DNA from: Escherichia coli
GTDB lineage: Bacteria; Pseudomonadota; Gammaproteobacteria; Enterobacterales; Enterobacteriaceae
Length of the DNA stretch: 64,000 nucleotides
Assembly: GCF_003334385.1 (NCBI RefSeq)
Contig: NZ_QOWN01000001.1
Direction: 5' to 3' (one strand)
The position numbers were made by a program. Below are positions 54,001-57,000 of this stretch, one piece after another. Position 1 is the stretch's first letter, and the number at the start of each line of letters is the position of its first letter.

Positions 54001-57000
54001 CCCCGGGAAGTCACCTTTCAGCCACTTCATTTATGGATTATACGCGGCCTGCACTGAGTTACGTCCATGTAGCTCATCTGACGTTCAGCCGCTTTATCTC
54101 GTGCTGTTCTGGTCTCAATACTTCCATGCCGTTGCAATTACCTCTTAAACCATTCCTTACCATTTTCATGTCTTCGATAAGAAATCTTCATCATGCATGA
54201 TCGATTTTGTCGATCGATTCGATCGAATTTTCTCTTTTTACCCTGTCTTTTGCATGGTTTTAAAATAAGCAACCTTCTTTATCGTGCGGGTAAGAACCAA
54301 CGGAGATGATTGAAATGAAAAAGGTTATTGTTGTTTCAGCGCTTGCTATGGCGGGCGTATTTTCAGCCCAGGCTCTGGCTGATAGGGGTAAAACAGGCTT
54401 TTATGTGACCGGTAAAGCTGGTGCTTCGGTTGTGACTCAGACTGACCAGCGCTTCCGTCAGGACTTTGGGGATGATGTTTATAAGTATAAGGGCGGTGAT
54501 AAAAACGATACTGTATTTGGTGCAGGCCTTGCGGTGGGCTATGATTTTTATCAACATTACAATGTTCCTGTGCGCACGGAAGTGGAATTCTATGGCCGCG
54601 GAGCTGCAGACTCCCATTATACACTGGATACATGGCATTCTCCGATGGGGGATGGTGGTCGGGAAGACACACAGAACAGGCTCAGTGTGAATACCCTGAT
54701 GGTGAATACGTATTATGACTTCAGAAACAGCAGTGCATTCACTCCATGGGTGTCTGTTGGACTGGGTTATGCACGGATACATCATAAGGCAACATATACT
54801 GATACCTCCTGGAATAAATCTGGTGAGGTGAGCGATATTTCTGCGTTGCATTACTCGGGATATGATAACAATTTCGCATGGAGCATTGGGGCCGGTGTTC
54901 GCTATGACATAACCCCGGATATCGCTCTTGACCTCAGCTATCGCTATCTGGATGCTGGTAAATCCTCCCTGTCTTACAAGGATGCAGAAGGGGATAAATA
55001 TAAATCAGAGGCTGACGTTAAAAGTCACGACATCATGTTTGGTGTGACTTATAACTTCTGACGACACTGCTCCTGAGCGATAATTACACATATTCAGTAA
55101 TTAAGATATTTATATATCTTCTGCAACTAAACAGAAATACCCTGCAGTAATATACCGCAGGGTTATTTGTTTCACAGGAGATTTATGGTTTTTATTATCT
55201 TATTCCCTTTATAATAATATTACCGATATATTCCGATGAATATCAGAAAACTGTTTTGTCCGGGCAATACACCCCGGATTTTATTGTTTTTATTCTTTTT
55301 TGTTGTTTCTGTCATAACCACAATTGCATGCGGATACACTGAGAAGAATGCCACCGGGAATGTGTTGCTGCTGTTCCTTCTTCTGCTCCTTGCACACAGA
55401 AATACCCTCACATCCATTACAGCGCTGTTATTTCTGTTCTGTTGTGCACTGTATGCGCCTGCCGGTATGACGTACGGTAAAATCAACAACAGTTTTATTG
55501 TCGCGTTGTTGCAGACCACAACTGATGAGGCAGCGGAGTTTACCGGGATGATTCCTGTTTATCATTTTCTGGTCAGTGCCGCGATTCAGGTATTCATGGT
55601 GATTTTCTGGCGAACACACCGCCGTGGTCACCGTAACTGGCTGGCACTGCTGCTGTTCGTATTATGCTCAATAAACAGCTGGCCGTTGCGGATGGTTAAA
55701 GGAACTGTTGTGGGGACAACTGACACATTGCGTGAAATGCAGCGTTATAAACAACTGAATCAGCACGGGGCTGACAACTGGAAAATCCTGCCGGGTGTAC
55801 CGTTGTATGACACGATTGTTATCGTCACTGGTGAGAGTGTGCGCAGGGATTATATGTCGGTATATGGCTATCCCGTGCCAACCACGCCGTGGCTGAATAC
55901 GGCACCCGGTTTATTTATTGACGATTATACCTCGACAGCCTCCAGTACAGTGTCTTCCCTGAGCCGGACACTGATTTATGACTATGAGCAGAACCCTGAT
56001 TCCGGCAACAATGTGGTGGCGCTGGCAGCAAAAGCAGGATACAGCACATGGTGGATATCCAATCAAGGAAAACTGGGGGAGCATGACACACGCATCTCTG
56101 TTATTGCTTCTGATGCGGAGCATGCCACTTTCCTCAAGAAAGGCAGCTTCGCTTCCCGTAAAACAGATGACAAACTGTTGTTACAGGAAACAGAACGTGC
56201 GCTGGCGGATACATCCTCTCCGAAGATAATTTTCCTGCACATGATGGGTTCTCATCCAAATCCGTGTGACAGCCTTAACTCCTAGCCGAATAATTACCTG
56301 GAGCAGTATCCCCGAAAAATTGCCTGTTACCTCGCCAGCATCAGTAAACTGGATAACTTTCTTGGCCAGCTTGATGGTATCCTTCGCCGGTACTCACGTC
56401 ATTTCGCCATGCTTTACTTTTCTGGCCTTGGGCTGTCGGTCAGCGACAGTGCCAATCCTGTTCATCATTATGGTCATGTGCAGGGAGGCTACAGTGTGCC
56501 ACTGATTATTACCGCCAGTGACATAACGTCTCATCAGCCCGTCAGTAGAAAAATCAGTGCCCGTCATTTCGCAGGTATTTTTCAGTGGCTGACCGGCATT
56601 CGTACTGAAAATATACCGCCATTCAATCCGCTGACAGACGAAGATAATGAACTCATTATGGTTTTTAACGGAGACAAGAATGTACCGACAGACAGCCTTG
56701 AGTCACAGCCTCTGATTCTTCCGGGCAAGGGAAAATAAGAGTAATGTTCATCACCAGGTTATGTACGATGAGTTTTCCACTGTTTATAGCAATTATCTTG
56801 CTAATAACCAGGAGTAACCAGACCAACCGAAAACTCCGGGGAGGTGATTACCCGCTGGCAGGATAAATCTGTAGTTTTTGATGCCAGCTATAACGTGTTT
56901 GACGATAAAGTATTACGAAAGAACTTTAATGAGTTCATGGAGTAATTCGTTAAAGTAATTTACAACGCTATCCTTTTGCAAAGGAAACTTTCAGAAAATA

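What the first reader, a model, noticed from the sequence alone, without database searches (positions are those of the whole stretch)
55236..56738. Frameshifted phosphoethanolamine-transferase-family gene between hek-like gene and integrase-proximal cargo
An envelope-modifying enzyme gene has been broken by a frameshift near 56,270-56,410, adding to the evidence of gene decay in the island.
Basis: seen in the sequence. Interest (0 to 1): 0.25.

Follow-up and report, generated by a model that had tools for sequence, protein, structure and literature searches.

The report
Nonsense-broken envelope enzyme gene, not frameshifted
A phosphoethanolamine-transferase-family gene in a uropathogenic E. 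coli pathogenicity island is dead, but through an in-frame stop codon and loss of two metal-binding residues carried on a ~650-base patch identical to the E. coli K-12 yjgX pseudogene, not through a frameshift; it is an ordinary pseudogene with an unusual origin.

Summary
The coordinates, the gene family and the "broken" state are correct. The frameshift is not.

- **No indel.** 55236-56738 is 1503 nt, the same length as the intact 500-aa gene of E. coli UPEC132. It aligns to that protein in one frame with no gaps.
- **The break.** A single TGG>TAG change (W350*) at 56283-56285 interrupts the gene. The two large ORFs (55236-56285 and 56409-56738) share one frame.
- **A second lesion.** The conserved zinc-ligand motif SDHG has become SGLG (D397G, H398L), so read-through of the stop would not restore activity.
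- **All changes sit in one patch.** Across 54000-58600, all 60 differences from UPEC132 lie in 55901-56546. That block is 100% identical to the K-12 MG1655 yjgX pseudogene beside leuX. The flanks match UPEC132 at every informative site.
- **Interpretation.** Homologous recombination (gene conversion) pasted a 646-742 bp piece of a pseudogene allele into an otherwise intact copy in the selC island.
- **The allele is real but rare.** An independent short-read contig is 100% identical over 16.8 kb. None of 5,426 complete E. coli genomes carries the mosaic.
- **It has happened before.** A second mosaic with a different left breakpoint exists in another island.

Verdict: ordinary gene decay, low interest.

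The parts
55236..56738 (+). Full-length (1503 nt) pseudogene of a YjgX-type phosphoethanolamine-transferase-family protein, with five hydrophobic N-terminal segments and a periplasmic sulfatase-fold domain
   Evidence: Same length as, and ungapped against, the intact 500-aa WP_021518327.1 of UPEC132. Pfam on the intact form: EptA_B_N 44-146 and Sulfatase 193-446. Hydrophobic segments lie within residues 9-154.
56283..56285 (+). In-frame amber stop: codon 350 is TAG where all intact alleles have TGG (Trp); the change is G>A at 56284
   Evidence: It truncates the Sulfatase domain roughly half-way and upstream of the Asp-His ligands.
55901..56546 (+). Minimal recombination (gene-conversion) patch of the K-12 yjgX-pseudogene type. 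The maximal tract is 55887-56588 for an MG1655-like donor, or up to 56628 for an L008/L009-like donor
   Evidence: All 60 differences from UPEC132 within 54000-58600 fall here. 55895-56550 is 100% identical to K-12 MG1655 and to many other genomes. All 60 informative sites inside are K-12-type, and all informative sites outside are UPEC132-type.
56424..56429 (+). Codons 397-398 read GGC CTT (Gly-Leu) where intact alleles read GAC CAT (Asp-His). This is the SDHG motif that aligns with MCR-1 Asp465-His466, which are zinc ligands
   Evidence: These residues are essential in MCR-1 (PMC8593676).
56469..56471 (+). Codon 412 is TAT (Tyr) where the intact alleles have GAT (Asp); this position aligns with an Asp of EptC
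55236..56285 (+). Residual 349-aa N-terminal ORF. It holds the membrane domain and the first part of the catalytic domain, and it retains Glu199 and Thr238
   Evidence: Logan gene calls record this exact product on 3 contigs.
56409..56738 (+). Residual 109-aa C-terminal ORF in the same frame as the N-terminal ORF. It starts at internal Met392, has no export signal and lacks the Asp-His ligands
   Evidence: It has no NCBIfam hit of its own.
54306..55061 (+). Upstream neighbour: Hek/Tia-family outer-membrane adhesin/invasin gene. Its DNA is identical to that of UPEC132 across the compared stretch (54000-58600), where the gene is annotated intact; the called start codon differs
57089..58132 (-). 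Downstream neighbour: TPR-repeat protein gene, identical to the UPEC132 copy
58544..59728 (-). P4-type tyrosine integrase of the island
60028..60122 (-). tRNA-Sec (selC), the island's attachment site, followed by chromosomal yicJ and yicI

Best explanation
This is the integrase-proximal phosphoethanolamine-transferase-family gene of a pap/hek pathogenicity island at selC in an extraintestinal pathogenic E. coli. It is a YjgX-type gene, an EptC/CptA-like relative whose acceptor substrate is unknown.

An originally intact copy of the UPEC132 type received a 646-742 bp tract by homologous, presumably RecA-dependent, non-reciprocal recombination. The donor was an allele of the old, divergent K-12 yjgX lineage, which is already a pseudogene.

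The tract brought in three things at once:
- an amber codon (W350*);
- replacement of the two C-terminal zinc ligands (D397G, H398L);
- D412Y.

Translation therefore stops after 349 residues, inside the sulfatase fold. Even read-through or reinitiation would give a protein without its metal site, so no active enzyme is made.

Shown: the absence of any indel, the stop codon, the ligand substitutions, the clean mosaic and its identity to K-12 yjgX, and the presence of the allele in independent assemblies.

Inferred: the recombination mechanism and its direction, whether the donor lay in the same chromosome (for example a leuX- or pheV-linked copy) or arrived by horizontal transfer, and the loss of activity, which rests on homology to MCR-1 and EptC.
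For: **No frameshift**
- The gene is 1503 nt against 1503 nt in the intact orthologue, with 60 substitutions and 0 indels.
- blastx gives a single-frame, gap-free HSP over residues 1-500.
- There is one internal stop only.

**Mosaic structure**
- Window 54000-58600 against UPEC132 shows 60 mismatches and 0 gaps, all of them within 55901-56546.
- The chance of that clustering under a uniform distribution is about 3e-49.
- 55895-56550 is 100% identical to K-12 MG1655 yjgX. PGAP flags that gene as frameshifted, with an internal stop and a missing N-terminus.
- The three-way informative-site table switches cleanly from UPEC132-type to K-12-type and back.
- K-12's own 1-nt deletion, at the position equivalent to 55761, lies outside the tract and was not inherited.

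**Conservation of the lost residues**
- Three intact allele classes, linked to selC, to pheU and to another island, all keep W350, D397, H398 and D412.
- D397-H398 align with the SDHG motif of MCR-1 and EptC. Asp465 and His466 are essential zinc ligands in MCR-1 (PMC8593676).

**The allele is real**
- The Logan contig from ERR1948963 is 100% identical over 16,765 nt.
- The exact 349-aa and 109-aa products are recorded on 3 contigs and in 5 samples.

**Recurrence**
- L007, from a different island, carries K-12-type sequence only from 56066 to 56546, including the stop and Gly-Leu. Its left breakpoint is different.
Against: - The donor copy has not been seen in the source genome. The window holds no second copy, and some close relatives carry only one copy.
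- dN/dS of the patch against intact alleles is 0.14-0.17, no higher than between intact alleles (0.11-0.21). The K-12 lineage therefore shows no long history of relaxed constraint, and the direction of transfer rests on parsimony and allele frequency.
- Loss of function is inferred from homology and was not measured. The function of the intact gene is itself unknown.
Confidence: 0.85

Rival explanations
1. One reading: the gene is broken by a frameshift (insertion or deletion) near 56,270-56,410.
For: Three overlapping ORFs are listed there, with start coordinates 0, 1 and 0 mod 3. By eye this can look like a shift out of frame and back.
Against: - There is no length difference and no gap against the intact orthologue.
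- The 41 codons between the stop and Met392 remain in frame and are collinear with the intact protein.
- The +1-frame ORF 56266-56505 has no significant similarity to the enzyme (only a 7-residue match, E = 2.8).
Confidence: 0.01
2. Assembly or polishing artefact: reads from a paralogous yjgX-type pseudogene elsewhere in the genome were wrongly incorporated into the selC copy, creating a chimeric consensus.
For: E. coli genomes carry up to 5 copies of this gene at about 90-96% identity. No complete genome has the mosaic.
Against: - An independent short-read assembly reproduces the mosaic exactly over 16.8 kb, and 5 samples share the contig.
- At the left junction, discriminating sites 55886 and 55901 are only 15 nt apart. 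A k=31 de Bruijn assembly, which from my own knowledge is what the Logan pipeline uses, can only contain this junction if reads contain it.
- A second, different mosaic (L007) shows that such recombinants occur naturally.
Confidence: 0.04
3. Reverse direction: the mosaic or K-12-type core is ancestral at this locus, and the intact UPEC132-type allele arose by repair or conversion from another intact paralogue.
For: The direction is not shown directly. The alleles of this gene are generally mosaic; for example, codons 352-362 and the 3' tail shuffle among the intact alleles.
Against: - The flanks of the window are identical to UPEC132 for about 1.9 kb to the left of the patch and about 2 kb to the right, and the patch is embedded within them.
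- The intact allele is common, on 129 contigs, whereas the mosaic is on 3.
- No complete genome among 5,426 has the mosaic.
- The patch carries derived null mutations that are absent from all three intact allele classes.
Confidence: 0.06
4. The gene is still functional, either through amber read-through or as a split two-piece enzyme.
For: Both halves remain open reading frames in one frame. Glu199, Thr238 and the HMMGSH motif are retained.
Against: - The zinc ligands Asp-His are replaced by Gly-Leu downstream of the stop, and these residues are essential in MCR-1.
- The 109-aa fragment has no signal sequence or membrane anchor and no family hit of its own.
- The same core is annotated as a pseudogene in K-12.
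Confidence: 0.02

Closest known systems
E. coli K-12 yjgX pseudogene (KpLE2 region next to leuX/intB)
   Same: The core 55895-56550 is 100% identical and includes the same TAG at codon 350, the same SGLG in place of SDHG, and D412Y. The family is the same, and so is the position close to the integrase of a tRNA-linked island.
   Different: The K-12 copy is also 5'-truncated, has a 1-nt deletion (at the position equivalent to 55761) and has a unique 3' tail next to IS2. The window copy is full length, its flanks belong to an intact allele lineage, and it sits at selC downstream of pap and hek.
Intact island-borne phosphoethanolamine transferase WP_021518327.1 (UPEC132, IAI39, CE10 and others; selC pap island)
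   Same: It has the same locus, the same neighbours and the same length, and it is identical outside the patch.
   Different: There are 60 nucleotide and 20 codon differences inside 55901-56546. The intact form has W350, D397, H398 and D412.
EptC/CptA (E. coli heptose-I phosphoethanolamine transferase; PDB 5zzu, 6a82, 6a83)
   Same: It is the best solved-structure match (E = 4e-18 over residues 193-429) and the best NCBIfam match. It shares the GES...R, HxxGxH and SDHG motifs.
   Different: The NCBIfam score is far below the cut-off (111 bits against 404), so this is not an EptC orthologue. The protein is shorter (500 aa against a 577-position profile), and its acceptor substrate is unknown.
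EptA/MCR-1 lipid A phosphoethanolamine transferases
   Same: The architecture is the same: an EptA_B_N membrane domain followed by a Sulfatase domain. The catalytic residues align: E199 with Glu246, T238 with Thr285, and D397-H398 with Asp465-His466.
   Different: The similarity is weak (E about 1e-4 to MCR-1 chains; 20-60 bits against cut-offs of 561-1250). There is no evidence for lipid A as the substrate or for polymyxin resistance.
Pseudogene-to-gene conversion, for example human CYP21A1P to CYP21A2 (own knowledge)
   Same: A short tract copied from a dead paralogue transfers several inactivating mutations at once into a functional copy.
   Different: This case is bacterial and involves island-borne paralogues or alleles. 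The donor locus was not identified, and no phenotype is known.

Membership tests
Phosphoethanolamine transferase / alkaline-phosphatase superfamily (EptA/EptB/EptC/OpgE/MCR type) | N-terminal multi-helix membrane domain (Pfam EptA_B_N) | tested here: met
   PF08019 matches residues 44-146 of the intact orthologue, E = 3e-5. Five hydrophobic segments lie within residues 9-154 of the window translation. This part is identical in the window and in the intact allele.
Phosphoethanolamine transferase / alkaline-phosphatase superfamily (EptA/EptB/EptC/OpgE/MCR type) | Complete periplasmic sulfatase-fold catalytic domain (PF00884) | tested here: not met
   The intact orthologue has Sulfatase at 193-446, E = 8e-38. 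In the window the domain is cut by TAG at codon 350. The locus is therefore a pseudogene of the family, not a functional member.
Phosphoethanolamine transferase / alkaline-phosphatase superfamily (EptA/EptB/EptC/OpgE/MCR type) | Catalytic Thr nucleophile and Zn ligands Glu, Asp and His (MCR-1 Thr285, Glu246, Asp465, His466) | tested here: not met
   E199 and T238 are present. The Asp-His pair is replaced by Gly397-Leu398. These residues are essential in MCR-1 (PMC8593676).
Phosphoethanolamine transferase / alkaline-phosphatase superfamily (EptA/EptB/EptC/OpgE/MCR type) | Transfer of phosphoethanolamine from phosphatidylethanolamine to an envelope acceptor | not testable with these tools
   I did not look for and did not find biochemical data for the intact YjgX-type protein. 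The K-12 deletion mutant, which removes a pseudogene, had no defensin phenotype (PMC4808223).
EptC/CptA orthologue group (NCBIfam NF007933 / NF012179) | Score above the curated cut-off | tested here: not met
   111 bits against a cut-off of 404, and 85 bits against 900, even for the intact orthologue.
EptA / EptB / MCR equivalogs | Score above the curated cut-off | tested here: not met
   18-72 bits against cut-offs of 493-1250.
K-12 yjgX-type pseudogene allele | Shared derived lesions: TAG at codon 350 and SGLG in place of SDHG | tested here: met
   100% identity over 55895-56550; site table.
K-12 yjgX-type pseudogene allele | K-12-type sequence along the whole gene, including the 1-nt deletion near 55761 and the 5' truncation | tested here: not met
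   The flanks are UPEC132-type at every informative site, and neither the deletion nor the truncation is present. The window gene is a mosaic, not a yjgX orthologue.

The most novel reading that the evidence does not exclude
The lesion-bearing core of the yjgX pseudogene may be spreading repeatedly by gene conversion into intact island-borne copies. At least two independent events with different left breakpoints were seen: the window and L007. On this reading, loss of the envelope-modifying enzyme is favoured in some extraintestinal E. coli lineages, that is, pathoadaptive inactivation delivered by a 'null cassette' rather than by new mutation.
Probability: 0.1. Interest if true: 0.45.

Novelty: new member of a known kind. 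Interest (0 to 1): 0.2.

Why it matters
The practical consequences are mostly for annotation.

- This locus should be labelled a pseudogene with an internal stop, not a frameshifted gene. It should not be counted as a functional phosphoethanolamine transferase or as an MCR-like candidate in this strain.
- Several inactivating changes can arrive together in an otherwise pristine island gene by a short recombination tract from a dead paralogue. Counting lesions as independent "decay" events therefore overestimates the age of the pseudogene and the degree of erosion of the island.
- The rest of this arm of the island (54000-58600) is base-identical to a strain whose genes there are annotated as intact.
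- If the recurrent spread of the null patch were shown to be selected, it would bear on how envelope modification is traded off in uropathogenic and bloodstream E. coli. Nothing here demonstrates that.

Tried and rejected
- **Frameshift.** Rejected by the ungapped nucleotide alignment and by blastx.
- **The +1-frame ORF 56266-56505 as part of the gene.** Rejected because it has no significant similarity to the enzyme (only a 7-residue match, E = 2.8).
- **A second copy (donor) inside the window.** None was found.
- **Relaxed selection in the K-12-type patch.** Not supported. dN/dS is 0.14-0.17, against 0.11-0.21 between intact alleles. The patch is simply old and divergent, with dS about 0.3. 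I therefore do not claim long-term decay of the donor lineage.
- **A Chi site near the tract as a recombination stimulator.** The only Chi site in the window is at 4252.
- **The exact mosaic in complete genomes.** Absent: the best whole-gene identity is 96.7%.
- **Whether the source strain carries a K-12-type copy at leuX or pheV.** This could not be tested, because the look-ups cannot be restricted to one sample or one genome.
- **Literature on yjgX.** It yielded only uses as an integration site, a false-positive K-12 screen hit, and a note that putative YjgX or YhbX phosphoethanolamine transferases were found at all the selC, pheU and pheV insertion sites analysed in the STEC strains of that study (PMC6174562). 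I found no functional study.

Full report
**1. What is at the coordinates**

ORF listing and translation show a 349-codon ORF at 55236-56285 and a 109-codon ORF at 56409-56738 on the + strand. A 79-codon ORF (56266-56505) overlaps both in another frame.

Translating 55236-56738 straight through in one frame gives 500 codons with a single internal stop, TAG at 56283-56285. The start coordinates of the two large ORFs are both 0 mod 3; the small one is 1 mod 3.

The surroundings are as follows:
- papG-II at 52945-53955;
- a Hek/Tia-type outer-membrane protein gene at 54306-55061;
- the gene in question;
- a TPR protein gene at 57089-58132 on the - strand;
- a P4-type integrase at 58544-59728 on the - strand;
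- tRNA-Sec at 60028-60122 on the - strand;
- then chromosomal yicJ and yicI.

This is the right-hand end of a pap pathogenicity island inserted at selC in an extraintestinal pathogenic E. coli.

**2. There is no frameshift**

The best whole-gene match among 5,426 complete E. coli genomes is E. coli UPEC132 and its relatives. There the same position holds an intact 1503-nt gene annotated "phosphoethanolamine transferase" (WP_021518327.1, 500 aa).

The window gene is exactly the same length. It differs by 60 substitutions and no indel. blastx of 55100-56900 against the intact protein returns one HSP, in one frame, covering residues 1-500 with 0 gaps and 96% identity. The +1-frame ORF has no significant similarity to the enzyme.

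The break is therefore a nonsense substitution: TGG to TAG at codon 350, G>A at 56284.

**3. A second, independent way the gene is dead**

Pfam places EptA_B_N at residues 44-146 and Sulfatase at 193-446 of the intact protein. Alignment to solved structures gave two relevant matches:
- E. coli EptC (5zzu), E = 4e-18;
- MCR-1 catalytic domains, E about 1e-4.

Those alignments put E199 on MCR-1 Glu246, T238 on Thr285, and D397-H398 (motif SDHG) on Asp465-His466. In MCR-1, Thr285 is the nucleophile. Glu246, Asp465 and His466 are zinc ligands, and deep mutational scanning showed all of them to be essential (PMC8593676).

The window allele reads SGLG, that is D397G and H398L at 56424-56429. It also carries D412Y. 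Three intact allele classes from different islands all keep W350, D397, H398 and D412.

Amber read-through or reinitiation at Met392 could therefore not give an active enzyme. That step is an inference from homology.

**4. Where the lesions came from**

Window 54000-58600 aligns to UPEC132 with 60 mismatches and no gaps. All 60 mismatches lie in 55901-56546. The chance of such clustering under a uniform distribution is about 3e-49.

That central block (55895-56550) is 100% identical to the yjgX pseudogene of K-12 MG1655, which lies next to leuX, intB and IS2. PGAP flags that gene as "frameshifted; internal stop; incomplete; missing N-terminus". The central block matches at 99% identity or better in 1,068 genomes.

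A three-way table of informative sites gives a clean pattern:
- every informative site up to 55886 is UPEC132-type;
- all 60 sites from 55901 to 56546 are K-12-type;
- every informative site from 56589 onward is UPEC132-type.

K-12's own 1-nt deletion, at the equivalent of 55761, lies outside the tract and is absent from the window.

The simplest reading is a non-reciprocal homologous-recombination (gene-conversion) tract. Its extent depends on the donor:
- minimal tract: 646 bp;
- maximal for an MG1655-like donor: 702 bp;
- maximal for a donor like L008/L009: 742 bp. Those loci have the K-12-type body but the common 3' tail.

The K-12-type lineage is old. In the patch, dS against intact alleles is about 0.3, compared with 0.04-0.08 among intact alleles. 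Its dN/dS (0.14-0.17) is no higher than between intact alleles (0.11-0.21). I therefore do not claim long relaxed evolution of the donor. I claim only that the donor carried the null mutations.

**5. Is the mosaic real?**

No complete genome carries it; the best whole-gene identity is 96.7%.

The exact 349-aa and 109-aa products are on record from Logan short-read assemblies, on 3 contigs and in 5 samples. One 43.6-kb contig, from ERR1948963, is 100% identical to window 47236-64000. The window is longer than that contig, so it comes from a different assembly.

At the left junction the discriminating sites 55886 and 55901 are only 15 nt apart. From my own knowledge, the Logan pipeline is a k=31 de Bruijn assembly. 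Such an assembly can contain this junction only if reads do.

I rate an artefact at about 4%.

**6. Recurrence and wider context**

A second full-length copy (L007, Logan ERR11268684) lies in a different island, next to DruA- and CoiA-like genes, a hek-like gene and a 420-aa integrase. It also splits into 349-aa and 109-aa products. However, it is intact-type up to 56012 and K-12-type only from 56066 to 56546. That is an independent mosaic with another left breakpoint.

L008 and L009 carry the K-12-type body at a pheV-like locus (speC-yqgA side), with a tail unlike K-12's own.

In the window and in L007 the K-12-type run ends just after 56546, and MG1655's own tail parts from the other alleles at the same point. 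There a stretch of about 40 nt that is almost invariant among the alleles gives way to a highly polymorphic 3' tail, with up to 27 differences per 100 nt. This is what homology-limited tracts would produce (inference).

The literature notes that putative YjgX or YhbX phosphoethanolamine transferases were found at all the selC, pheU and pheV insertion sites analysed in a set of STEC strains (PMC6174562). The only experimental mention of yjgX I found is a false-positive K-12 deletion mutant in a defensin screen (PMC4808223).

**7. Family placement**

The intact protein has the architecture and catalytic motifs of the phosphoethanolamine-transferase branch of the alkaline-phosphatase superfamily and is closest to EptC/CptA. 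It scores far below the curated NCBIfam cut-offs for CptA, EptA, EptB and every MCR family.

It is a distinct YjgX-type member whose acceptor substrate is unknown. The window copy is a pseudogene of that family.

**8. Verdict**

| Point | Result |
|---|---|
| Coordinates | Confirmed |
| Gene family | Confirmed |
| Gene broken | Confirmed |
| Frameshift | Refuted |
| Progressive decay of the island | Not supported for this arm; apart from the patch it is base-identical to a strain with intact annotations |

The thing itself is an ordinary pseudogene. The one mildly unusual aspect is its origin: a short conversion tract copied from a dead allele, seen at least twice independently.

Interest is low, at about 0.2. 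The most novel reading that the evidence does not exclude is selected, recurrent spread of the null patch. I give that about a 10% chance.

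Noticed in passing
window 51750-52750: A strongly divergent block in the papE/papK region, with about 90 differences per 250 nt against UPEC132 and UID2309220036, inside an otherwise nearly identical island. 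It looks like another allelic replacement within the pap operon.
   Followed up: partly
window 25001-50000 compared with 60250-64000: The island interior is 99.8-99.9% identical to strains UID2309220036, N50 and UPEC132. The chromosomal flank (yicJ, yicI) differs from those strains by roughly 2-3%, whereas window 54030-64000, which includes this flank, is 99.2-99.3% identical (patch included) to Ec-U1, 102651 and others. This suggests the island is shared between different chromosomal backgrounds.
   Followed up: partly
L007 1-3100 (Logan ERR11268684): A second mosaic copy of the gene sits beside DruA- and CoiA_N-domain genes (Druantia-like defence genes) and a different 420-aa integrase. The hek-like gene plus the transferase gene thus travel as a module in unrelated islands.
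   Followed up: partly
protein P0017 (445 aa; NCBI EIH8884842.1): Another allele lacks about 55 residues between two RHFA motifs (…SRHFA|GIFQ…), which removes the SDHG motif. This looks like a deletion between short direct repeats, that is, a further independent way this gene has been inactivated.
   Followed up: no
L002 about 5700-5845 (K-12 MG1655), equivalent to window 56589-56738: The 3' tail of K-12 MG1655 yjgX carries many bases found in none of the other seven alleles compared, including other K-12-type bodies (L008, L009). K-12's own copy therefore appears to be mosaic or unusually divergent at its IS2-proximal end.
   Followed up: partly
window 56740-57088: The intergenic stretch downstream of the gene corresponds to a short - strand 'hypothetical protein' that PGAP marks as frameshifted in one relative (L006 6626-6855). 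About 89%-identical copies occur on their own in many genomes. This may be a remnant of another small gene.
   Followed up: no
window 25001-50000: The island cargo upstream of pap includes the pgtABCP phosphoglycerate transport and regulation genes and an ATP-dependent nuclease. Some near-identical relatives additionally carry a group II intron (ltrA) that is absent from the window.
   Followed up: no
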